In this document: positions 7,846 to 61,247 of the stretch, one piece after another
How positions within the stretch are numbered: position 1 is the stretch's first letter
How the letters are laid out: the number at the start of each line of letters is the position of its first letter
Sequence record: PV808484.1
Source of the DNA: a phage
DNA: 64,000 nucleotides
Direction: 5' to 3' (one strand)
Notes under the pieces: model-generated
What the model was told of the DNA's origin: nothing
Databases searched by the model: none
Seen by the model: the letters and a program-made list of their open reading frames with translations, nothing else
Program-made: the position numbers and the translations under genes

Positions 7846-8206
7846 TTGATATTTGAGGGGGACGGTCGGCAGAAATCGGGGGGCGCTGAAAATCGCGTTA
7901 AGCACCTCTCGCAAGCGAGCAGTATTTTGCGGCAAGTTATTGATATTATTGGCTTTACGCTTATGGAAAGGGGGTGTGTCGAAATAAATCGGGTATACCG
8001 GAAAATTTTTGTGGCATAGATATTTATTTGTCTATATTATGTACAAAGGGGTGTGTTAAAAATATTAGGTATATATAGAATAATTGATAGGGAAATCCTA
8101 TACTAATTCCTCCATTAATGATGTTTCTATGTTGCTGTTCTTGTAACAGATGAAAAGACGCTGTATGATGTGTAGCATGAAACGTAAATTTATAAAGGAG
8201 TCTGAT

Positions 8207-8575
8207 ATGTGTGTTCCTCTTAGCAGTCCTCTGCTGTTAGAATTTTACAAAGCATGGATGGAAGATCATTCCTCAATGCATCGTGAGAATGTTGGTTTGT
8301 GTAATTGCCTTATGGATTACCTGGCAACCACTATGTCAAAGAAAAAGCCTACGGAAGAAGATATAGAATATTTCAAGATGGTTCGTAGCAAAACGCTGAA
8401 AGAGATGAAACTGCAATTCACGTGTGCTGGGCTATCCTCCTTCCTACCCTTTAATTATGATCTTCTATGTTATGAAGATGAAGGTAAGACACATTCTTGC
8501 CATACCAACCCAAAGAGATTGCAGTGGGTGAAAGATCGTATTGCCGATTCATGTTTGGTGTTAGGGGGGTGGTAA
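8207..8575 (+). CDS. hypothetical protein, paralog family A member 1 (Cys/His-rich)
   Basis: AAGGAG RBS; shared motifs FYKAW, GLCxCL, FTCAGL, LPFN, CHTN, LQWVKDRI with three other genes. Confidence 0.5.
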   Translation: MCVPLSSPLLLEFYKAWMEDHSSMHRENVGLCNCLMDYLATTMSKKKPTEEDIEYFKMVRSKTLKEMKLQFTCAGLSSFLPFNYDLLCYEDEGKTHSCHTNPKRLQWVKDRIADSCLVLGGW

Positions 8576-8943
8576 TGAAAAGTAATATTCCGTTGAGTAG
8601 TGCAGCTTTAATACGATTCTATAAAGCATGGATTGCCAACCATCCGGCAATGAATCGCACAACGAGTGGCTTGTGTGGTTGTCTGGTAGATTATGTAGAT
8701 GATTTTGTTGGCGAGGTAACTAGAGAAGAAGATAAAAGATGGCGTGATCGTTTGTTGGATAGTTTGAAATACGAAATGAGGAAACAATTTACATGTGCAG
8801 GACTGGACTACAATCTTCCGTTCAATGTAGATTGCATGGATTACCTTTCAGAGTGTATAGACTTGGCGTGTCATACCAACACGTTACGTCTTCAATGGGT
8901 GAAAGACAGAATCGAAGATGCAAATAATGCTTGCATTGAATAG
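8575..8943 (+). CDS. hypothetical protein, paralog family A member 2
   Basis: ATGA overlap start; same motif set as 8207..8575. Confidence 0.5.
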   Translation: MKSNIPLSSAALIRFYKAWIANHPAMNRTTSGLCGCLVDYVDDFVGEVTREEDKRWRDRLLDSLKYEMRKQFTCAGLDYNLPFNVDCMDYLSECIDLACHTNTLRLQWVKDRIEDANNACIE

Positions 8944-9014
8944 AAATGTCTGTACACTGTGTTCCATAAGATATGCAATATCGCGCATAACAAAACTACT
9001 AATGAGAGGTGTAA

Positions 9015-9473
9015 ATGAAAACTGTATCTTTGTATCTTGCTAACACGGAGCGTGTACATAATCTCGTAAAAGAATGCGGTGTGAGTGTTCAATTTAATAC
9101 AGGAAAGCCTTCCGTGGTGACAGGCAGTGAGATGTGTGTTATTGATTTCCTCAATGAATATTTTCGTGGAAAACCTATTGCTCGTCACTTCATTCAAGAA
9201 ATGCGAGATGTTCTACAGGATTATGAATTCTACCCAGAAGTTTGTGAACGCTATGAAACGATTCTTAGTTCTGTAGAAGATCCAGATACTAGTGAAACAG
9301 GTGCTTCCCACTTACTGTGGATGTTGAATGAAATTCAGGATGGGTGTAATGGTATGTCTGAAACCAAACGCCATCGTTGGCTAGGCTATATTCAGGGTGT
9401 TATGGTTATGAAAAACCTTATTACAGTGAACGATGAACGTAACGCTACACGCCCCGTCTTTAATGGAGCATAA
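9015..9473 (+). CDS. hypothetical protein
   Basis: ORF track; GAGAGG RBS. Confidence 0.5.
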   Translation: MKTVSLYLANTERVHNLVKECGVSVQFNTGKPSVVTGSEMCVIDFLNEYFRGKPIARHFIQEMRDVLQDYEFYPEVCERYETILSSVEDPDTSETGASHLLWMLNEIQDGCNGMSETKRHRWLGYIQGVMVMKNLITVNDERNATRPVFNGA

Positions 9474-49835: not shown

Positions 49836-50042
49836 TTATTTAAAATATTGTTCTAACAAAACACTAATGCGAACTACCGATTCGCCCATATACGCCCCAG
49901 CACAGAGGAAAACAACAAATCTACAAAAATTGCAGTACCATTTGTCAACTGGAAACGAGGCTAACATTATAATTGCAATAGCAATTAACATCATAAGAAC
50001 TGTTGCTAATACCATACTACCTCTTACTCTGCTGGTTCCCAA
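49836..50042 (-). CDS. small membrane protein
   Basis: hydrophobic core VLATVLMMLIAIAIIMLASF. Confidence 0.45.
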   Translation of the reverse strand: MGTSRVRGSMVLATVLMMLIAIAIIMLASFPVDKWYCNFCRFVVFLCAGAYMGESVVRISVLLEQYFK

Positions 50043-51139
50043 GTACCTGGAATCATCTTACGTACACGTACCCCAACAGGTTTAGTAGGAATACCTTCGT
50101 CTGAAAATTCTTCGTACTCAATTTCAACAAATTGACCAATAAGTGTCAAAGCATTTTCTTCTTTACGATAGTTAATGGTTTCATCTGAATCCTTACGCAT
50201 CAGGAATTCGACTACTTTACCATTTTCCATCTCGCCTGTCAATACCCCGTCACCATTTTTATCACGTTTTGCACTGACTACCTTAACTTCAAGAGTCTGC
50301 CGTGGTTTACGTTTAATAACATCATAAGAACGTTTATCAAACTCGTAAACACCTTGTGCGTTACGATACACAACACCTTCCGCTTTCTCATGCAGAGCTT
50401 TTGCATAGAAAGCATCAAACTGCTCTTGGTTTTCAATGTATTCTGTATGTACTACACAAATGAGTTCATCTAAACCTTTATCTTCAACAACTTCTTTTAG
50501 AGCAGCTAAAACTTGAACCCTCTTCTCAAATGGTACAGATGGCACAGGAACATCATATACATAGTATTTAAGAAGCGGAGTGTTAGCATTATGCTTTTTC
50601 CACGCACTATTAATTTGTTGAAGGCTAAGGACACCCAAACCAGCAAAAACTTCACCGTCAAGAGGATGACCAACTACTTCTTTAATGAAGGTTGGAATTT
50701 CTTTCCAGTGAGGTGGAAGTTTATATACCTCCCCAGCTTTAGATAAACATTCACCTTGCATGTTAATCATTGAACGTAGACCATTCAATTTATATTGTGC
50801 ATAACCTGGGAACAAAACACGATCAGCATAATCTTTATAATCCTGACATTTCATGGGTGTGGAAGGAACATGGTTTTCAGCTTCCTCTTTTGTTTTATAA
50901 TACCCACTCTTAAGTTGCTTTGTCCATTTGGCAAGAGCTTCTATTTCAGCTTGTTCTTCTGCTGTTGTTTCATTTGAGCGACCAATATTTTTAGGTTCTG
51001 CTGTATAAGATTTGCTAGTAATCTTTCCACCTAATTGACCATGAGCAACAGTTACAACACTACCTTCGGTATAGACTGACCACTGTTTAATTTTACCTGT
51101 AGAAGTTTTACCATATAATGTAGGATTAGTTTGTTTCAT
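50024..51139 (-). CDS. ATP-dependent DNA ligase-like nucleotidyltransferase
   Basis: start moved to Met with GGAGG RBS; motif I YKLNGLR (N where D is canonical), motif III HPLDGEV, motif IV EGVVYR, motif V DVIKRK. Confidence 0.7.
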   Translation of the reverse strand: MKQTNPTLYGKTSTGKIKQWSVYTEGSVVTVAHGQLGGKITSKSYTAEPKNIGRSNETTAEEQAEIEALAKWTKQLKSGYYKTKEEAENHVPSTPMKCQDYKDYADRVLFPGYAQYKLNGLRSMINMQGECLSKAGEVYKLPPHWKEIPTFIKEVVGHPLDGEVFAGLGVLSLQQINSAWKKHNANTPLLKYYVYDVPVPSVPFEKRVQVLAALKEVVEDKGLDELICVVHTEYIENQEQFDAFYAKALHEKAEGVVYRNAQGVYEFDKRSYDVIKRKPRQTLEVKVVSAKRDKNGDGVLTGEMENGKVVEFLMRKDSDETINYRKEENALTLIGQFVEIEYEEFSDEGIPTKPVGVRVRKMIPGTWEPAE

Positions 51140-51329
51140 CTTTAACCTCCAGTTGCGAAAGAACCCATTTAGCCATTTCAATTTCACCGTGTAGTCTGCC
51201 TAGTTCATAGGCATCATCAATATTACCACCAGTGTAATCATCCACCATAAAGTAAGGATCTTCGCTACTGTTAGGTGCGTTTGCAATTCTCGTTAGTTCT
51301 TCAATAAATGTCATAGTCACCCTTACCAA
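51126..51329 (-). CDS. hypothetical protein
   Basis: ORF track. Confidence 0.4.
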   Translation of the reverse strand: MVRVTMTFIEELTRIANAPNSSEDPYFMVDDYTGGNIDDAYELGRLHGEIEMAKWVLSQLEVKDETN

Positions 51330-51547
51330 TTATACACAAGAGTTTGAATTTCTTCCATTAAGTCTTCAAGATCTGTATCAACGTATTCAGAAGATGTTGC
51401 CATAAAGTATGTAATCATTGTGAACCCTTCTGAAGAAAGGGCATCAAGGATATCATTAAACATATCTTCCATTTCAGTATTCTCACCAAATGAGAATAAC
51501 ATTTGTTGATCTTCGCTTACACCTTTAACATAGATAGCTGTACTCAT
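51323..51547 (-). CDS. hypothetical acidic protein
   Basis: ORF track. Confidence 0.4.
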   Translation of the reverse strand: MSTAIYVKGVSEDQQMLFSFGENTEMEDMFNDILDALSSEGFTMITYFMATSSEYVDTDLEDLMEEIQTLVYNW

Positions 51548-51550
51548 ATA

Positions 51551-51871
51551 TTAATCCTTAAGACGTTCATTTAAATCTGCAATAACATCACCTAAATCTT
51601 CACATTCCAGTGTTAATTCTGAAACTTGTCCACTCAAATAACAAACTTCTTCATTTAGATCTGAAATAATGTTTTCTAATGAATCTACTTGGTCATCATA
51701 TGAACGTTTTGTTTCTTCAAGTTCTTCCGTAAGATCATTAATCAAATGGAGCAAAGATAAGATATAACCGTCTCCTGTCGCGTTCCTCCACTCACTTCCG
51801 TAGCGATAAATAATAATTTCACCATTATCGACTACTGTAAAATACTTACCTTCACCAGAATAAATTTCCAT
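51551..51871 (-). CDS. hypothetical protein with coiled-coil-like C-terminus
   Basis: ORF track. Confidence 0.45.
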   Translation of the reverse strand: MEIYSGEGKYFTVVDNGEIIIYRYGSEWRNATGDGYILSLLHLINDLTEELEETKRSYDDQVDSLENIISDLNEEVCYLSGQVSELTLECEDLGDVIADLNERLKD

Positions 51872-51880
51872 ACGCTCTCC

Positions 51881-52285
51881 TTATTGTAGCTTAAGTGAAC
51901 TGCGAAGACGTTTCTCTTGCTGATCACGAATATGTTGTGGAACCTCATGAATTGAGTCGTTACCGTGCCTATTTTCAACAACTAAAGAGATAACTTGATA
52001 ACCAAACTCTTCAGCAAGAGTAAAATAAGGTTTAAGTTCTTTCTCTGTGGTTGAAGTGTTAGAGACAATAATCTTTTTAATATTAGACTGCATAGCATCA
52101 CGAACAATGACTCGACACCATGCGTGTGCTTTACCTACATTCTCTGGCTTCCAATCGTAAACACCACTTTCTGTGTAATGATATTGATCTGCCTCACAGA
52201 TAGGCCAATAACCTTCAGAAATAATTTCTGCTACTGTAGATTTACCTGCACCTGAAACACCACGTAAAATGATAAGTTGTTTCAT
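51881..52285 (-). CDS. P-loop polynucleotide kinase-like protein
   Basis: ILRGVSGAGKST Walker A; short kinase-only protein. Confidence 0.6.
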   Translation of the reverse strand: MKQLIILRGVSGAGKSTVAEIISEGYWPICEADQYHYTESGVYDWKPENVGKAHAWCRVIVRDAMQSNIKKIIVSNTSTTEKELKPYFTLAEEFGYQVISLVVENRHGNDSIHEVPQHIRDQQEKRLRSSLKLQ

Positions 52286-53218
52286 TTAGCCTCCAAAGAA
52301 GTTTTCTATTTCTTTACGTCGCTCTTGTGGATCTAGAGCAGCCCATTGAACCTTCGTAAAATTATTTCGAAGCCATTCTAGCAAAGTATAATATTCTTCG
52401 TCAACAATTTGTTTAGCATTTTTTGGGTTGTCCCAAATCATATCCCACTTCTTATTGCCACCACGCATAAGGAATTTCTTAGCAAGATAGTATGGTGACT
52501 TAATCTTTAAAAGTAAGTTAAACGGATAGTTTGTTTCACGAACAACAAAGCCTTCGTGTCTACAATGTTTAGACATTTCAACAACATCTGAAAATTTAAT
52601 CATTGGATAAACTTCAGGACGTTTAAACTTTGTAATAGATGCAATCCCATCAAGAACACCTTCAGGTAACATGAAACTTGTCCCATCAAGATTTTGAATT
52701 CTTGCTCCAATTAAGTATGCGCCTGGTTCTTCTTCGACAATATGTGGATCAGAAGGATCACAGATTTCAAAAAGGAAAGTTGCTTTTGCACTTTCTGTCC
52801 ACTTAATGAAATACTCTATGTCGTCACACTCGGAAACAATACGGTTCTTTGCCATAATTGCAAAATCTGATTCTAGGCTCCCTGTTGTTGATACAACAAG
52901 TTTCCCTTTGTACACACCTACAGATGCCATAAAACCGTTTACTTTACGGACAGCATCTACAAGCTGGTCTGCTGGAAGATCTGTACCATTCTCAAAACGA
53001 TTAAAGATTTTAGTAAAAGGCCAAATAACAACATTGTCTTCTGAGTCAACAACCAACCCACGACAATATAGAAGCCGTTTGTCAACGTTCCACAAATTAT
53101 CCCAGAATACATTGTTTTTGTATTTAAGTACAGCAAGACCAGCATACTCTCCAGATTTAACTTCTTTTTTATGCACTAAACCTTTTGCAATCAGGTCATC
53201 ACAATTGAACTTAGCCAC
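52286..53218 (-). CDS. RNA ligase-like nucleotidyltransferase
   Basis: motif I KVNGF, motif IV EGFVVR, motif V KIKSPYY. Confidence 0.6.
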   Translation of the reverse strand: MAKFNCDDLIAKGLVHKKEVKSGEYAGLAVLKYKNNVFWDNLWNVDKRLLYCRGLVVDSEDNVVIWPFTKIFNRFENGTDLPADQLVDAVRKVNGFMASVGVYKGKLVVSTTGSLESDFAIMAKNRIVSECDDIEYFIKWTESAKATFLFEICDPSDPHIVEEEPGAYLIGARIQNLDGTSFMLPEGVLDGIASITKFKRPEVYPMIKFSDVVEMSKHCRHEGFVVRETNYPFNLLLKIKSPYYLAKKFLMRGGNKKWDMIWDNPKNAKQIVDEEYYTLLEWLRNNFTKVQWAALDPQERRKEIENFFGG

Positions 53219-53219
53219 C

Positions 53220-53771
53220 TTAATCTCCTTTGATTATCTTATGATGGTCTACAACAACAATATCACGCTTATCCATAATAGAGATGATTTCGTCAAAATG
53301 CAAGATTTTCCCGTGTGCATCCCAACCAACATCCAACATCTTCCCATACAAATGATCAGGGAATGATCCGTGAGAGTGTCCGTGTAGCATGATTGATCCA
53401 TGCCCTTGTTTATTCCAGGCAGCCATAGGGTAATGGCTTAAGACGAAAAACAGCTTCTGATATTTCACTTCGTCATAATAAACCACTTCTCCATACTCTG
53501 CAAGCACTTTTCTGTGTTTACTGTAATCATGGTTCCCAACACAGTAAGTAATATCCCCTTGGAGACGGGAAGCAATCTTACGGGTATCTTCTTCAGTCCC
53601 GAAACAGAAGTCCCCAAGATGGTACATCTTTACTCCTGGTGTTGTGGCACATTTATTCCATGCTTCGATCAGTGCTTCTGTCATATGCTCCATATCTTCC
53701 CACGGGCGATATTCAGGAGCAAACTCTCGGATACGTTTGTGCATAAAATGCAAATCACTTGTAATAAACAT
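53220..53771 (-). CDS. calcineurin-like metallophosphoesterase
   Basis: SDLHFMH, HLGDF and GNHDY motifs. Confidence 0.7.
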   Translation of the reverse strand: MFITSDLHFMHKRIREFAPEYRPWEDMEHMTEALIEAWNKCATTPGVKMYHLGDFCFGTEEDTRKIASRLQGDITYCVGNHDYSKHRKVLAEYGEVVYYDEVKYQKLFFVLSHYPMAAWNKQGHGSIMLHGHSHGSFPDHLYGKMLDVGWDAHGKILHFDEIISIMDKRDIVVVDHHKIIKGD

Positions 53772-54133
53772 TAGTATAATCCCTCGCTGAATAGTTCACT
53801 GTCGTGACCATTTCTTTCATAGTTAATTTGTTTGGCGTTATCTGCAATGATATAAGCATCTTTGCGACTCCACCAATTATAATACTGATCAATAAACCCT
53901 TGATTATCAGGTAAGCAAAACAGTTTATCGATCAATCCTGCATCTTTTAAAACATTAAGTTGTGCAGATAGTACAGGATTTGCATGCCTAACACAAGGAA
54001 TAATTAACTCTTCGCCATTGTTGAGAATATACTTATTCGCAGCGCAGACTATAACACGTTGAGCATAGTGATCCTCACCAATCCAAGTAAGAGGTTGGTA
54101 ACAAATATCATGTTGATTAGTAGCGCACATCAA
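53771..54133 (-). CDS. hypothetical protein
   Basis: ORF track. Confidence 0.45.
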   Translation of the reverse strand: MMCATNQHDICYQPLTWIGEDHYAQRVIVCAANKYILNNGEELIIPCVRHANPVLSAQLNVLKDAGLIDKLFCLPDNQGFIDQYYNWWSRKDAYIIADNAKQINYERNGHDSELFSEGLY

Positions 54134-54288
54134 TTTTCTCCATACTCTTTTAATTTATCAGCGAAAAAACTGTAGTCAGGAAGTAAAAGATCATTACTAG
54201 TATCGCTCCAGTTTTCTTCCTCTCTATAGATAAAATGCCCTTCATCCTCTTCTTGCTCTGACCAAACTGAATAATGCATAATACCTAC

Positions 54289-54663
54289 TTAATAGTTAAC
54301 ACGTTTAATTTCAACACCATAGGATGAAATAAAATTTTCCTTAGCTAACATATATTTACCAGCAGCAGAAGGATTTGATGTATGAACATAGATAGTTTTA
54401 AGAGCATCCCATTCACCCGCGTACAACATACATTCTACATCCAAGAACGCATGATATCCTTCTTGATCTTCTCCAAGATCATTGTCGAAGTGTATCTCTG
54501 AGATAGTATTGAAATTATCTTCATCTGAAACAAAAGCTAACCAATCCTCAAAAGATTTTAACCAAATGGCATCCTCATAACCATAATCTTTAGGATTTCT
54601 TAAATCGTCTAACCAAAGAATTTTAGCCACTATCAACCCCCTGCCTGTTTCTCTTCTTTCCAA
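54289..54663 (-). CDS. hypothetical protein
   Basis: ORF track. Confidence 0.45.
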   Translation of the reverse strand: MERRETGRGLIVAKILWLDDLRNPKDYGYEDAIWLKSFEDWLAFVSDEDNFNTISEIHFDNDLGEDQEGYHAFLDVECMLYAGEWDALKTIYVHTSNPSAAGKYMLAKENFISSYGVEIKRVNY

Positions 54664-56677: not shown

Positions 56678-57571
56678 ATGAAAGTTAGTATTCTACATGG
56701 TGTTGACTGTTATGTTACTGATGTAGACGTTAAAGTGTTTACATTCTCTGGTGGAGAACAACATGTTCAATTAGATACGAACCTGTCAGGTTTCAATCAT
56801 GCTACAGACAGAATCTTACTCACATTAGAAGTAAGATCTGCTAAAGACTTGATGACTTTGGTTATGACTAAGAATGCATTGGACAATATGCTATATCATA
56901 AACCATATTGTGTTGATTTACTCATGTTGTATGTACCGTATGCACGACAAGACAGAGTGTGTGAGCCTGGGGAAGCATTTGGAGTTAAAGCATTTGCTTC
57001 TATAATTAACTCATTAAATTTCTCACGTGTTATCGTTGCTGATCCACACAGTGATGTTACTCCAGCAGTGTTTGACAGACTCTGTGTAATACCTCAAGAA
57101 GAGATTGCTTACGAAACTTTAAAATGGAAGTTACGTATGGAGAATTTTGCTCTTGTTAGTCCTGATGGTGGTGCTCTTAAGAAAATATTTAAATTATCTA
57201 AGAAAATGTCTTTAGATGTGTTCTGTGCAGAGAAGGTTAGAGATACCGCAACAGGTGCTATTGTTCGTACAGACATTTCTGTACAGGATTTCAATAAGCG
57301 TAACCTGATGATCGTAGACGATATCTGTGATGGTGGTAGAACTTTTATCGAATTGGCTAAAGTGCTACGTGCTCGTAACGCAGGTAAGATTGAGCTATAT
57401 GTTACACACGGTATCTTTTCTAAAGGTCTTAAAGAGTTAAGTGAGCACTTTGACTGCATTCATTCTCTTAATATATGGGAAGATAACATCCAAGAAGATT
57501 CCGGTGTTCTTGTTAAGAATCAGTCAGATTTGCAACAACAAATTGTATCTCCATACGTGTGGAATTTTTAA
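56678..57571 (+). CDS. prs: ribose-phosphate pyrophosphokinase (Prs)-like enzyme; candidate ADP-ribose pyrophosphokinase
   Basis: YVPYARQDR, VIVADPHSD and MIVDDICDGGRTF phosphoribosyltransferase-type blocks aligned to Prs. Confidence 0.8.
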   Translation: MKVSILHGVDCYVTDVDVKVFTFSGGEQHVQLDTNLSGFNHATDRILLTLEVRSAKDLMTLVMTKNALDNMLYHKPYCVDLLMLYVPYARQDRVCEPGEAFGVKAFASIINSLNFSRVIVADPHSDVTPAVFDRLCVIPQEEIAYETLKWKLRMENFALVSPDGGALKKIFKLSKKMSLDVFCAEKVRDTATGAIVRTDISVQDFNKRNLMIVDDICDGGRTFIELAKVLRARNAGKIELYVTHGIFSKGLKELSEHFDCIHSLNIWEDNIQEDSGVLVKNQSDLQQQIVSPYVWNF

Positions 57572-57642: not shown

Positions 57643-59376
57643 ATGAATATTTTTGCACCTTTTGCTACTGATTGGTATAAACCTGGTCACAAGCAGATGT
57701 ACAACCAAAATACAAAACTTATTTTCTCTAATTTAACTCCTCGTAATGATAAAAACTTTGCACACTATGCAGATCGTGAAGCACGTGGTGTCATTGTTTT
57801 AGGTATTCGTAGAGCAGTAACCGATGCTCTTGTAACTATGTGGGACGGCTTCTTTAAAATGTCTCGTAGTGCAGCAGTAAATAAATTTTATCGTATGTCT
57901 AAAAATGCATTAGGTGCTTCTGCTCCTTCTGCTGAATGTTGGGGAGAATTGCACGATTTAGGTTATCTTCCGCTGGAAGTTCGATCTCTGCCAGAAGGTG
58001 TTTTGTGTCCTATTGGTGTTCCTGTGTTTACTGTGCATAATACTTTAGAAAAATTCTTTTGGTTAACTAATTATGTGGAAACACTGTTGTCAGATGAAAC
58101 TTGGAAGACAATGACTAATGCCACAGCAGCTTTTCAGTATAAGCGTATCGCTATGGCATATGCGATGGCAACGTGTGATAATATTGATCACGTTAACTTC
58201 CAGTGTCATGACTTTAGCCTACGTGGTTTAAGTAATATCGAAGATGGTTATAAGAGTGGTATCGCTCATTTGGCATCGTTCACAGGAACAGATAATATTC
58301 TGGCTATTGAAACTGTACATGATTATTATGGTATTGATTATGATCAGTTTGTTGCAGGTTCTATTCCGGCTACAGAACATTCAGTAGCAACGACTAACAT
58401 TGGAGCTATTGTTGAAGATCTGAAGGAACATTTCCCACGTCTTAAAGATGATGTAGATTGGCTTCGTTATGTAGCAGAAAAAGAGTTTCTTCGTCGTTAT
58501 ATTGAAGAAATTGTTCCAGAAGGTTTTTGTTCATATGTAGCAGATTCTTATGATTACTGGGCTGTATTGACTAACATTCTGGTAGAGTTGAAAGATTCTA
58601 TTATGTCACGAAATGGTCGTCTTGTTATTCGTCCAGACTCAGGAGATCCGGTTAAAGTTGTTGCAGGATACAATATTGAATCTTTTGATAACTATGAAGA
58701 CCTTTTAAATAATGGTATTGCGACAGCCACTGAAGTAGTTCATTTGGCTGATGTTAATAAGTATTACAATGTTCTTCAGGATTGCAGTGTTGCTGACTGT
58801 ATTGATGAAACTTATGAAATTCCTTATTATGAAGCAGTAGGTTCTATTCAAATCCTTTGGGAAGTGTTTGGTGGTACTATCAACCGAAAAGGCTACAAGG
58901 TTCTTGATCAGCATATCGGTATGATTTATGGTGATTCTATTACTGTTGAACGAGAACACGAGATCTTACGCCGACTGAAGAAGAAAGGTTTTGCAGCTTC
59001 CAATATTGTATTTGGTGTTGGTAGTTATACTTATCAGTTCAATACACGAGATACTTTCGGTTTTGCTGTTAAAGCAACAGGTAGTATCATCGGTGAACAC
59101 GAAATTTTGGTAAGTAAGGAGCCTAAAACTGATCCTGGTAAACGCTCTGCAAAAGGCTTTATTAAGGTTGTTAAGGATACCAATGGTAATCTCTCTCTTG
59201 TAGATAATCTTTCTTTTAAAGATATCCAGGATGAAGACAATGAGTTACAAGTTATCTTCAAGAATGGTAAGGTTATTACACCACAAGTAGAAGGACGTGA
59301 TGAAACATTTACTGATATCCGCAACCGTGTTGACGTAGAGGTTCTTCGTACTATGGGAACCATCCAGGTTGACTAA
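57643..59376 (+). CDS. nadV: nicotinamide phosphoribosyltransferase (NAMPT/NadV)-like enzyme
   Basis: N-terminal FATDWYKPGHKQMY block typical of NAMPT; 577 aa with extensions. Confidence 0.85.
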   Translation: MNIFAPFATDWYKPGHKQMYNQNTKLIFSNLTPRNDKNFAHYADREARGVIVLGIRRAVTDALVTMWDGFFKMSRSAAVNKFYRMSKNALGASAPSAECWGELHDLGYLPLEVRSLPEGVLCPIGVPVFTVHNTLEKFFWLTNYVETLLSDETWKTMTNATAAFQYKRIAMAYAMATCDNIDHVNFQCHDFSLRGLSNIEDGYKSGIAHLASFTGTDNILAIETVHDYYGIDYDQFVAGSIPATEHSVATTNIGAIVEDLKEHFPRLKDDVDWLRYVAEKEFLRRYIEEIVPEGFCSYVADSYDYWAVLTNILVELKDSIMSRNGRLVIRPDSGDPVKVVAGYNIESFDNYEDLLNNGIATATEVVHLADVNKYYNVLQDCSVADCIDETYEIPYYEAVGSIQILWEVFGGTINRKGYKVLDQHIGMIYGDSITVEREHEILRRLKKKGFAASNIVFGVGSYTYQFNTRDTFGFAVKATGSIIGEHEILVSKEPKTDPGKRSAKGFIKVVKDTNGNLSLVDNLSFKDIQDEDNELQVIFKNGKVITPQVEGRDETFTDIRNRVDVEVLRTMGTIQVD

Positions 59377-60537: not shown

Positions 60538-60619
60538 CGGGGTGTATCTCACCTGACTTCTAATCAGGCGTTAACCGAGTAATTGGAGTATGCAGGTTCG
60601 AATCCTGTCACCCCGGCCA
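60538..60619 (+). tRNA. tRNA-like element, possible tRNA-Arg (anticodon loop CTTCTAA) with irregular D region
   Basis: perfect acceptor CGGGGTG/CACCCCG, T-arm GCAGG-TTCGAAT-CCTGT, CCA; perfect stem-loop CCTGA-CTTCTAA-TCAGG; cloverleaf not resolved. Confidence 0.4.
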
Positions 60620-60682: not shown

Positions 60683-60772
60683 GGAAGGTAGGGCGCAGCG
60701 GTGCGCAACCAGGTTTGAACCCTGGCCCATTGTAGCGATACGGTGATGGTTCGACTCCATTATCTTCCTCCA
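60683..60772 (+). tRNA. tRNA-Ser (anticodon TGA), class II
   Basis: acceptor GGAAGGT/ATCTTCC, D-arm GCGC-AGCGGT-GCGC, anticodon arm CCAGG-TTTGAAC-CCTGG, 19 nt variable arm, T-arm GATGG-TTCGACT-CCATT, CCA. Confidence 0.8.
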
Positions 60773-61172: not shown

Positions 61173-61247
61173 ACATCGTTAGCCAAGCGGTAAGGCACTT
61201 GACTTTTAATCAAGGGAGCGAAGGTTCGAATCCTTCACGATGTACCA
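61173..61247 (+). tRNA. tRNA-Lys (anticodon TTT)
   Basis: acceptor ACATCGT/ACGATGT, anticodon arm CTTGA-CTTTTAA-TCAAG, T-arm GAAGG-TTCGAAT-CCTTC, CCA. Confidence 0.85.

What the first reader, a model, noticed from the sequence alone, without database searches (positions are those of the whole stretch)
51881..53771. Kinase / RNA ligase / phosphoesterase trio: candidate tRNA-repair cassette
Three adjacent minus-strand genes encode a 134 aa P-loop kinase, a 310 aa ligase-family nucleotidyltransferase (KVNG, EGFVVR, KIKSPYY) and a 183 aa calcineurin-like phosphoesterase. Together these supply the 5'-kinase, 3'-phosphatase and sealing activities that T4 Pnkp plus Rnl1 use to repair tRNAs cut by host anticodon nucleases, but here the activities are on three separate proteins. 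The Lys-x-Asn-Gly form of motif I is the form I recall from Trl1-type tRNA ligases. The phage also encodes its own tRNA-Lys(TTT), the classic anticodon-nuclease target.
Basis: partly seen in the sequence, partly recalled or inferred. Interest (0 to 1): 0.6.

Follow-up and report, generated by a model that had tools for sequence, protein, structure and literature searches.

The report
Phage RNA break-repair gene cassette
Three back-to-back genes of this phi92-like coliphage encode a phosphoesterase, an RNA ligase and a polynucleotide kinase, most likely to mend RNA (probably tRNA) cut by host defence nucleases; the kit is a widespread but biochemically untested variant of the classic T4 repair system.

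Summary
Window 51881-53771 (minus strand) holds three tightly packed genes: a 183-aa metallophosphoesterase, a 310-aa ligase and a 134-aa P-loop kinase.

- **Kinase:** it is closest to the Clostridium thermocellum and T4 polynucleotide kinases.
- **Phosphoesterase:** it keeps every dinuclear metal motif.

In 82 related phage loci the three genes sit together in 62, and kinase and ligase are one fused protein in 12. Close kinase relatives are also fused to HD and 2H cyclic-phosphodiesterase domains.

A predicted cyclic-phosphate-processing cREC gene lies two genes upstream. In sister phages it lies between ligase and kinase.

The RNA "heal and seal" reading is therefore well supported. tRNA as the substrate, and anticodon nucleases as the trigger, remain inferences.

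It is not new as annotation: GenBank phage Bas62 already names all three genes. No member has been characterised. The ligase C-terminal module matches neither T4 Rnl1 nor Trl1, and an invariant His/Lys/Arg set resembles Trl1's 2'-phosphate site.

Interest is moderate.

The parts
53220..53771 (-). 183-aa stand-alone dinuclear metallophosphoesterase, the proposed 3'-end healing enzyme (2',3'-cyclic phosphodiesterase and/or 2'/3'-phosphatase)
   Evidence: All five metallophosphoesterase motifs are invariant in 23 homologues down to 36% identity: D6xH8, G53D54, G79N80H81, H113, G131H132xH134. Hits are phrog_547 at 4.8e-55 and, as the only solved sequence relative, Aquifex aq_1665 (1xm7) at 2.3e-20. 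It lies within 6 kb of the ligase in 67 of 82 related loci.
52286..53218 (-). 310-aa ATP-dependent RNA ligase of the Rnl1/Trl1 adenylyltransferase clade with a short (about 68 aa) helical C-terminal module; the proposed sealing enzyme
51881..52285 (-). 134-aa minimal P-loop polynucleotide 5'-kinase, the proposed 5'-end healing enzyme
   Evidence: hhalign against the T4 Pnk kinase domain gives probability 97.5%, E 7e-12, over the full length. Foldseek's top hits are C. thermocellum Pnk (TM 0.79) and T4 Pnk (TM 0.75). The P-loop G9-K15-S16 and the Asp33 general-base equivalent are conserved. Relatives are fused to the same ligase family, to HD domains and to CNPase-type 2H domains.
54289..54663 (-). 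124-aa cREC (cyclic-phosphate-processing receiver-like) protein; a probable accessory 3'-end healing component in the same leftward gene string
   Evidence: Pfam PF20274 scores 4e-14, above the gathering score. The REC-type acidic pair, Asp, Thr/Ser and Lys are conserved. In sister phages the gene lies between the ligase and the kinase (L005-L009, L014, L087). Operonic linkage of cREC to RNA ligases was reported in PMC7824862.
53771..54133 (-). 120-aa protein of unknown function (phrog_839) whose stop codon overlaps the phosphoesterase start codon; membership in the system is uncertain
   Evidence: phrog_839 scores 3.2e-47 and there is no Pfam hit. The overlap is by 1 nt. Apart from the near-identical phages L003 and L004 (96-97% ligase identity), it accompanies the cassette in only one other related locus, L075.

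Best explanation
This is an RNA "heal and seal" repair cassette.

Host ribonucleases, most plausibly anticodon nucleases switched on by infection, cut RNA and leave a 2',3'-cyclic phosphate end and a 5'-OH end. The proposed steps are:
1. The 183-aa metallophosphoesterase opens or removes the terminal phosphate. The cREC protein encoded two genes upstream may help.
2. The 134-aa kinase phosphorylates the 5'-OH end.
3. The 310-aa ligase is adenylylated on Lys92, transfers AMP to the 5'-phosphate, and seals the break.

What is shown here: the fold and family of each protein, conservation of catalytic residues, tight operon packing, and conserved gene linkage and fusion.

What is inferred: the chemistry of each step, that the substrate is tRNA rather than other RNA, and that the purpose is counter-defence.
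For: **Ligase**
- The profile hits only T4 Rnl1 among solved structures (4e-10), and hhalign gives probability 96.4%.
- The best fold matches are T4 Rnl1 and Trl1-LIG. The tRNA-ligase clade scores far above Rnl2/3/5 and DNA ligases.
- Ten of eleven residues that I recall as essential in T4 Rnl1 are kept.

**Kinase**
- The nearest sequences and structures are RNA-repair kinases: Pnkp1, CthPnk, T4 Pnk and the Mucorales tRNA-splicing kinase.
- Asp33 aligns with the CthPnk general base Asp38.

**Phosphoesterase**
- All metal-binding motifs are invariant.
- There is precedent. The metallophosphoesterase plus kinase of CthPnkp heals tRNA halves so that T4 Rnl1 can seal them (PMC1920235; PMC2190708).

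**Context**
- All three genes lie together in 62 of 82 related loci with 39-97% ligase identity, in two different gene orders.
- In 12 loci the kinase and ligase are one ORF.
- Among the closest 150 kinase clusters, the multidomain members pair the kinase with this ligase (4), an HD domain (2) or a CNPase-type 2H domain (1). All are RNA end-processing partners.
- A 41%-identical phosphoesterase sits 3 kb from an Rnl2-type ligase in another phage.
- cREC is embedded between ligase and kinase in sister phages.
Against: - No biochemical or genetic data exist for any member.
- The motif Ia lysine of T4 Rnl1 (Lys119) is replaced by an invariant Ser-Thr-Thr-Gly.
- The C-terminal module shows no detectable similarity to the T4 Rnl1 domain that confers tRNA specificity, so tRNA specificity is unsupported.
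- The kinase has His where T4 Pnk has Arg38, and only one of the two lid arginines.
- The phosphoesterase's only solved relative has no known function.
- One phosphoesterase homologue lies in an NADAR/NMNAT-like context without a ligase.
- An ATP-dependent DNA ligase lies about 700 bp downstream in the same gene string.
Confidence: 0.72

Rival explanations
1. The kinase and phosphoesterase heal DNA nicks (5'-OH / 3'-phosphate) for the ATP-dependent DNA ligase encoded about 700 bp downstream. On this view the cassette serves phage DNA replication or repair rather than RNA repair.
For: A DNA ligase gene (50024-51187; PF01068 at 6.5e-11, phrog_114 at 7.7e-75) lies in the same leftward gene string. 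One lies within 6 kb of the cassette in many related loci. T4 Pnkp also acts on DNA ends (established knowledge).
Confidence: 0.07
2. The phosphoesterase, cREC and kinase act on small molecules, such as cyclic-nucleotide or ADP-ribose-derived immune signals or NAD+ metabolites. They would then be part of an anti-defence and NAD-salvage island, with the RNA ligase working independently.
For: - cREC was defined through linkage to NAD+/ADPr-processing systems as well as to RNA ligases (PMC7824862).
- PRPP-synthetase-like and NAMPT genes lie 3-4 kb away in the window and next to the cassette in L002, L019 and L087.
- One phosphoesterase homologue sits with NADAR and an NMNAT-like gene and no ligase.
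- A SIR2 gene follows the cassette in L006.
Against: The phosphoesterase, ligase and kinase are adjacent in 62 of 82 loci, and kinase-ligase fusions exist. The kinase's nearest structures are polynucleotide kinases, and its top 22 Foldseek hits are all of that kind. The phosphoesterase also accompanies a ligase of a different family, Rnl2.
Confidence: 0.1
3. The ligase-like protein acts mainly as a T4 gp63-type tail-fibre attachment factor, which is how many database records annotate it. On this view its neighbours are unrelated.
For: phrog_562 and many GenBank records carry the name "RNA ligase and tail fiber protein attachment catalyst". T4 gp63 (Rnl1) has that second activity (established knowledge).
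Against: The name is inherited from T4, which shares only about 18-22% identity. All catalytic nucleotidyltransferase residues are invariant in 77 homologues. The gene sits among nucleotide-metabolism genes, not structural genes. Linkage and fusion with a kinase make no sense for a tail-assembly role.
Confidence: 0.03

Closest known systems
Phage T4 tRNA repair pathway (Pnkp plus RNA ligase 1) that counters the PrrC anticodon nuclease
   Different: - The 3'-end enzyme is a dinuclear metallophosphoesterase, not a DxDxT (HAD) acylphosphatase, and it is not fused to the kinase.
- Motif I is KVNG rather than KEDG, and the motif Ia lysine is absent.
- The ligase is 64 aa shorter, and its C-terminal module shows no detectable similarity to the T4 tRNA-specificity domain.
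- Identity is too low for BLAST to connect the two: no T4-type phage appears among the organism counts or the 40 records sampled from the 727 matches.
Bacterial Pnkp/Hen1 RNA repair system (Clostridium thermocellum Pnkp; Capnocytophaga Pnkp1-Rnl-Hen1)
   Same: It combines the same chemistry: a P-loop polynucleotide kinase plus a dinuclear metallophosphoesterase plus an ATP-dependent ligase. The CthPnk kinase is the best structural match to the window kinase (TM 0.79), and Pnkp1 is the best sequence match among solved structures. CthPnkp end-healing of tRNA for T4 Rnl1 has been shown experimentally (PMC1920235).
   Different: - The activities are on three separate small proteins, not one polypeptide of about 870 aa.
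- There is no Hen1 methyltransferase nearby: no unassigned ORF of that size lies in 48.7-57.6 kb.
- The phosphoesterase has GDF[CS]F at motif II, which is not what I recall as the lambda-phosphatase/CthPnkp form.
Fungal/plant tRNA ligase Trl1 (Rnl6 clade), including the Mucorales stand-alone ligase and stand-alone RNA 5'-kinase
   Same: - Motif I is KxNG, and the window protein's motif IV is EGFV[IV]R (PMC6379707).
- An invariant His follows the motif III Glu at +8, compared with +9 in Trl1. hhalign aligns it with Trl1 His227.
- Invariant Lys248 and Arg252 follow motif V at +8 and +12, compared with Arg at +9 and +12 in Trl1.
- In Mucorales the activities are also on separate proteins, and those kinases appear among the window kinase's hits.
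   Different: - Overall profile similarity is weak (hhalign probability 28%).
- The RxxR register is not reproduced.
- The motif IV Arg is kept in only 31 of 77 homologues.
- The C-terminal module shows no sequence similarity to the Rnl6 C-domain.
- The 3'-end enzyme is a metallophosphoesterase, not a 2H cyclic phosphodiesterase.
cREC-containing RNA-repair / NAD-centred systems predicted by Iyer et al. 2021 (PMC7824862)
   Same: A PF20274 cREC protein is linked in an operon to an ATP-dependent RNA ligase, a polynucleotide kinase and a phosphoesterase, as that paper describes for jumbo phages.
   Different: This is a 145-kb non-jumbo coliphage. cREC occurs in only 10 of 82 related loci, so it is accessory. 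Its activity is still only a prediction.

Membership tests
Rnl1 family (T4 RNA ligase 1 type) | Covalent nucleotidyltransferase motifs I, III, IV and V with the lysine nucleophile | tested here: met
   K92 (motif I), E151 (III), E222-G223 (IV) and K238/K240 (V) align with T4 K99, E159, E227-G228 and K240/K242. They are invariant in 77 homologues.
Rnl1 family (T4 RNA ligase 1 type) | Rnl1-type N-terminal subdomain that contacts the ATP gamma-phosphate (T4 Arg54, Lys75) | tested here: met
   R53 and K70 are invariant and aligned with T4 R54 and K75. The role of these residues is taken from PMC6379707.
Rnl1 family (T4 RNA ligase 1 type) | Motif Ia lysine (T4 Lys119) | tested here: not met
   T4 K119 aligns with T112 of an invariant S-T-T-G segment. 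That Lys119 is essential is my own recollection of the T4 mutational literature.
Rnl1 family (T4 RNA ligase 1 type) | The family-defining C-terminal domain (T4 aa 255-374) that confers tRNA specificity | tested here: not met
   hhalign of residues 241-310 against the T4 C-domain gives probability 0.7%. Only a 12-residue DNPxx...[IV]D resemblance appears, at E 0.08. The protein is 64 aa shorter.
Rnl1 family (T4 RNA ligase 1 type) | Adenylyltransferase fold closest to T4 Rnl1 | tested here: met
Trl1-LIG / Rnl6 clade | Motif I in the form KxNG | tested here: met
   K92-V-N94-G95, with K, N and G invariant in 77 homologues. The Trl1 form is taken from PMC6379707.
Trl1-LIG / Rnl6 clade | The His-Arg-Arg triad that enforces the 2'-phosphate requirement (Cth His227, Arg334, Arg337) | tested here: inconclusive
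   Invariant H159 is aligned with His227 by hhalign, but in a low-probability alignment. Invariant K248 and R252 lie at +8 and +12 after motif V, against +9 and +12 in Trl1, so they are not in the RxxR register.
Trl1-LIG / Rnl6 clade | The Rnl6-specific five-helix C-domain | tested here: inconclusive
Polynucleotide 5'-kinase clade (T4 Pnk, CthPnk) | P-loop GxxGxGK[ST] | tested here: met
   G9-V-S-G12-A-G14-K15-S16. R8, G12, G14 and K15 are invariant.
Polynucleotide 5'-kinase clade (T4 Pnk, CthPnk) | General-base aspartate that activates the 5'-OH (T4 Asp35, Cth Asp38) | tested here: met
   Invariant D33 aligns with T4 D35 and with the CthPnk Asp. The role of this residue is taken from the PMC3902929 abstract.
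Polynucleotide 5'-kinase clade (T4 Pnk, CthPnk) | Arg at Asp+3 (T4 Arg38) and the lid arginine (T4 Arg126) | tested here: not met
   A nearly invariant His36 replaces Arg38. Invariant R106 aligns with T4 R122, and D110 aligns with R126. The alignment in the lid loop is uncertain.
Polynucleotide 5'-kinase clade (T4 Pnk, CthPnk) | Fold closest to polynucleotide kinases rather than nucleotide kinases | tested here: met
   The top 22 Foldseek hits are CthPnk, T4 Pnk and a Mucorales RNA kinase (TM up to 0.79). The first non-polynucleotide kinase, PFK-2, is at rank 23.
Dinuclear metallophosphoesterase superfamily (lambda phosphatase / CthPnkp phosphatase) | Five metal-binding motifs: DxH, GD, GNH[DE], H, GHxH | tested here: met
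   D6xH8, G53D54, G79N80H81D82, H113 and G131H132xH134; the metal-binding residues themselves are invariant in 23 homologues.
Dinuclear metallophosphoesterase superfamily (lambda phosphatase / CthPnkp phosphatase) | Activity on RNA 2',3'-cyclic phosphate, 3'-phosphate or 2'-phosphate ends | not testable with these tools
   This is inferred from linkage to RNA ligases of two families and from the CthPnkp precedent.
cREC (PF20274) | Pfam model above the gathering score, and REC-type catalytic residues | tested here: met
   53.5 bits against a cut-off of 27. Conserved motifs are WLDD, HFDNDLGE, VH[TS]SNPSA and K[FY]MLA.
Bacterial Pnkp/Hen1 system | A Hen1 2'-O-methyltransferase partner | tested here: not met
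   There is no methyltransferase hit among the neighbours scanned, and no unassigned ORF of Hen1 size in 48.7-57.6 kb.

The most novel reading that the evidence does not exclude
The ligase founds an uncharacterised RNA-ligase clade that is neither Rnl1 in the strict sense nor Rnl6.

Like fungal and plant Trl1, it would require a 3'-OH,2'-phosphate end. That end would be read by the invariant His159, Lys248 and Arg252. The metallophosphoesterase would act as a cyclic phosphodiesterase that stops at the 2'-phosphate.

Repaired RNAs would then carry a 2'-phosphate at the junction. The host's NAD+-dependent Tpt1 homologue KptA would have to remove it. That would give E. coli KptA a natural substrate, and it would explain why the cassette repeatedly sits beside phage NAD+-salvage genes.
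Probability: 0.12. Interest if true: 0.8.

Novelty: new variant of a known kind. Interest (0 to 1): 0.42.

Why it matters
tRNA- and RNA-cleaving defences such as PrrC, RloC, PARIS, retron/PtuAB and Cas13 are a growing class of anti-phage immunity. The only experimentally established phage repair answer is T4 Pnkp plus Rnl1.

This cassette family occurs in at least 727 deposited phage genomes, infecting Escherichia, Pseudomonas, Vibrio, Klebsiella, Acinetobacter and Streptomyces. Many of these are phage-therapy candidates, and no member has been tested.

Showing that it works would have three consequences:
- RNA repair would be established as a common counter-defence.
- It would predict which hosts these phages can overcome.
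- It would add small stand-alone RNA end-healing and sealing enzymes to the molecular-biology toolbox.

The ligase's distinct C-terminal module and its Trl1-like residues make its end specificity and substrate specificity a well-posed biochemical question.

Tried and rejected
- **Single-sequence PDB searches.** Searching the ligase, whole or as its NTase core, found nothing. Only a family profile reached T4 Rnl1.
- **NCBIfam.** It has no model for any of the proteins.
- **Burroughs & Aravind 2016.** This RNA-repair survey (PMC5062991) is not in the held library, so its catalogue could not be compared directly.
- **Promoter and terminator scans.** Counts do not exceed shuffled controls and do not define the transcription unit.
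- **Rfam.** It finds only tRNAs in the window and no RNA partner near the cassette.
- **C-terminal module.** hhalign against the T4 Rnl1 and Trl1 C-domains gave no significant match.
- **Literature.** Searches for functional work on phi92-like, Stephanstirmvirinae or Pakpunavirus cassettes returned only genome descriptions.
- **Flanking small ORFs.** ORFs at 51.3-51.9 and 54.1-56.3 kb have no informative family.
- **EGFVVR as a Trl1 hallmark.** I rejected this as a family-wide feature, because the Arg is kept in only 31 of 77 homologues.
- **"The kinase is a nucleotide kinase."** I considered this unlikely given its structural neighbours and fusion partners.
Full report
**Where the window comes from.** Over 51500-54200 the window is 98.9% identical to Escherichia phage JohannJBalmer (Bas62). 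That phage belongs to genus Justusliebigvirus, subfamily Stephanstirmvirinae, the phi92-like myophages of about 145 kb. The finding lies in a long leftward gene string of nucleotide-metabolism and small unknown genes.

**Observation.** The quoted peptides are present. The DNA shows a 1-nt gap between the first two genes and no gap between the last two. Each start is preceded by a Shine-Dalgarno sequence. The upstream 120-aa ORF overlaps the phosphoesterase start by one base.

**The ligase**
- *Family hits.* Pfam RNA_lig_T4_1 (4.8e-14) and phrog_562 (8e-68) match.
- *Solved relatives by sequence.* A profile of 25 homologues hits only T4 RNA ligase 1 among all solved structures (4e-10). hhalign against T4 Rnl1 gives probability 96.4% over the adenylyltransferase domain.
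- *Catalytic residues.* In 77 distinct homologues (39-97% identity) the nucleophile Lys92, Asn94-Gly95, Glu151, Glu222-Gly223, Lys238 and Lys240 never vary. Neither do the N-subdomain residues Arg53 and Lys70.

Three departures from T4 Rnl1 stand out:
- Motif I is KVNG, which is the Trl1 form.
- The motif Ia lysine is replaced by an invariant Ser-Thr-Thr-Gly.
- The C-terminal module (about 68 aa, five short helices) has no detectable sequence similarity to the T4 tRNA-specificity domain or to the Trl1 C-domain.

An invariant His159 follows motif III, and invariant Lys248 and Arg252 follow motif V. Their positions are close to those of the Trl1 His-Arg-Arg triad that enforces a 2'-phosphate end (PMC11404444). 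To make this comparison I recalled the yeast Trl1 sequence from memory. I used it only to retrieve the true sequences of PDB entries 9qw7 and 6n67, which match it at 4e-173 and 4e-103. Those printed PDB sequences are what I used. The resemblance is suggestive, but the register is not identical and overall profile similarity to Trl1 is weak (probability 28%).

**The kinase**
- *Family hits.* Pfam AAA_33 (1.3e-9) and phrog_505 polynucleotide kinase (2e-8) match.
- *Solved relatives by sequence.* A 21-sequence profile ranks RNA-repair kinases first: Capnocytophaga Pnkp1, a Mucorales tRNA-splicing kinase, C. thermocellum Pnk, T4 Pnk and the tRNA kinase PSTK.
- *Profile and fold.* hhalign against the T4 Pnk kinase domain gives probability 97.5% over the full length. 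The model (pLDDT 87.4) superposes best on CthPnk (TM 0.79) and T4 Pnk (0.75).
- *Active site.* The P-loop and the general-base aspartate (Asp33) are invariant. T4 Arg38 is His here, and only one lid arginine is kept.
- *Fusion partners at scale.* Against 1.84 billion representative proteins the family has 12,891 clusters, mostly stand-alone proteins of 130-150 aa. Among the multidomain members in the top 150, four carry this same ligase (in both domain orders), two an HD phosphohydrolase domain and one a CNPase-type 2H cyclic phosphodiesterase. All of these partners process RNA ends. This argues strongly against a nucleotide-kinase role.

**The phosphoesterase.** All five dinuclear metal motifs are invariant in 23 homologues down to 36% identity. 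The only solved sequence relative is Aquifex aq_1665 (1xm7, 2.3e-20), a structural-genomics protein of unknown function. Its substrate is therefore inferred from context and from precedent. In C. thermocellum Pnkp a metallophosphoesterase domain opens and removes the 2',3'-cyclic phosphate of broken tRNA, so that T4 Rnl1 can seal it. A single substitution makes that domain stop at a 2'-phosphate, which yeast tRNA ligase needs (PMC1920235 and PMC2190708).

**Context**
- Scanning IMG/VR with the ligase alignment gave 80 loci, to which I added two loci found by exact protein look-up.
- HMM scans of their ORFs show phosphoesterase, ligase and kinase together within 6 kb in 62 of 82 loci. They are usually adjacent, and occur in two different gene orders.
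- In 12 loci kinase and ligase are one ORF. For example, L056 encodes 432 aa with AAA_33 at 16-115 and RNA_lig_T4_1 at 184-367.
- Starting from the phosphoesterase side, a 40%-identical homologue lies in the same cassette (L087). A 41%-identical one lies 3 kb from an Rnl2-family ligase (L085). A third lies with NADAR and NMNAT-like genes and no ligase (L086).
Window 54289-54663 encodes a cREC protein (PF20274, 4e-14). Iyer et al. 2021 predicted this receiver-like domain to process cyclic phosphates and reported it linked to RNA ligases.
- In Phapecoctavirus-like loci cREC sits between ligase and kinase. Its REC-type catalytic residues are conserved. It occurs in only 10 of 82 loci, so it is accessory.

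1. The phosphoesterase, with or without cREC, heals the 3' end.
2. The kinase heals the 5' end.
3. The ligase seals through a Lys92-AMP intermediate.

Fold, family, catalytic residues and linkage are shown here. The chemistry, the identity of the RNA and the biological trigger are inferred.

tRNA is the most plausible substrate by analogy with T4, and because the nearest ligase relatives are both tRNA ligases. However, the domain that gives T4 Rnl1 its tRNA specificity is not recognisably present.

The phage's own tRNA-Lys has the anticodon loop CUUUUAA, which as I recall is the same as the host's. The phage copy would then offer no obvious escape from a Lys-specific anticodon nuclease.

**Rivals.** I considered DNA-nick healing for the neighbouring DNA ligase, a small-molecule or NAD-centred role for the phosphoesterase, cREC and kinase, and a T4 gp63-like tail-fibre role. 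Each is less likely, mainly because of the kinase-ligase fusions and the structural neighbours.

**Novelty.** The kind of system is known from T4 Pnkp/Rnl1, bacterial Pnkp/Hen1 and Trl1. GenBank already labels the Bas62 genes "polynucleotide kinase", "RNA ligase" and "putative phosphoesterase". The ligase has been called "RNA ligase 1/tail attachment protein" since the phage V5 record DQ832317.

I found no experimental work on any member. The combination is a variant not described biochemically: a stand-alone minimal kinase, a stand-alone aq_1665-type metallophosphoesterase, a short Rnl1/Trl1-like ligase with its own C-terminal module, and an optional cREC.

I rate it a new variant of a known kind, of moderate interest (0.42). 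The most novel reading still open is a Trl1-like requirement for a 2'-phosphate, which would implicate host KptA and NAD+. I put its probability at about 0.12.

Noticed in passing
window 56678-57571 (+) and 57643-59376 (+); also L002 7556-11434, L019 8171-9058, L087 331-3415: A PRPP-synthetase-like gene and a nicotinamide phosphoribosyltransferase gene (phrog_619 at 3.4e-91, phrog_448 at 2.3e-188) sit 3-4 kb from the repair cassette. The same pair, or one of its members, lies beside the cassette in phages whose ligases share under 50% identity or whose phosphoesterase shares 40% identity with the window's. This may be an NAD+-salvage counter-defence module, or a hint of NAD+-dependent RNA repair.
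   Followed up: partly
window 60538-60616 (+) and 60683-60772 (+): Rfam calls a tRNA at 60538-60616 (38.6 bits) that ARAGORN did not report. ARAGORN's tRNA-Ser(tga) at 60683-60772 is missing from the Rfam list. The tRNA cluster may therefore hold 15 genes, one or two of them atypical.
   Followed up: no
window 61173-61247 (+): The phage tRNA-Lys(UUU) has the anticodon stem-loop CUUGA-CUUUUAA-UCAAG. As I recall the E. coli sequence, the loop is identical to the host's, so it shows no anticodon-loop change that would evade a Lys-specific anticodon nuclease.
   Followed up: no
L047, L050, L056, L059-L066, L068 (e.g. L056 5548-6846): Twelve metagenomic phage loci encode a single protein of about 430 aa with the kinase fused N-terminally to the ligase, and no homologous phosphoesterase within 6 kb. 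Representative clusters P0455 and P0501 have the opposite domain order, ligase then kinase. What heals the 3' end in these phages is unknown.
   Followed up: partly
proteins P0430 (2373 aa) and P0438 (2322 aa): Two giant proteins carry three or four tandem copies of the same minimal kinase domain (E about 1e-40 to the family profile). Their origin and other domains were not examined.
   Followed up: no
window 53771-54133 (-): A 120-aa protein (phrog_839, no Pfam hit) has a stop codon that overlaps the phosphoesterase start codon. Outside near-identical phages it accompanies the cassette only in L075. Its function is unknown.
   Followed up: partly
L085 2003-3100 and 5001-5579: A 41%-identical homologue of the phosphoesterase lies 3 kb from an Rnl2-family RNA ligase (PF09414), with no detectable homologue of the kinase. 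The phosphoesterase family therefore partners with more than one ligase family.
   Followed up: partly
L006 8149-8925; L002 4175-4627 and 11911-12408; L019 4595-5041: In related phages the genes next to the cassette encode a SIR2-family protein, HD_4-type phosphohydrolases and a Macro domain protein. These are further NAD/ADP-ribose or nucleotide-signal enzymes clustered with the repair genes.
   Followed up: no
L001 7968-9076: The ATP-dependent DNA ligase homologue downstream of the cassette is split into two overlapping ORFs (7968-8435 and 8402-9076). This could be a frameshift, a sequencing error or a programmed feature.
   Followed up: no
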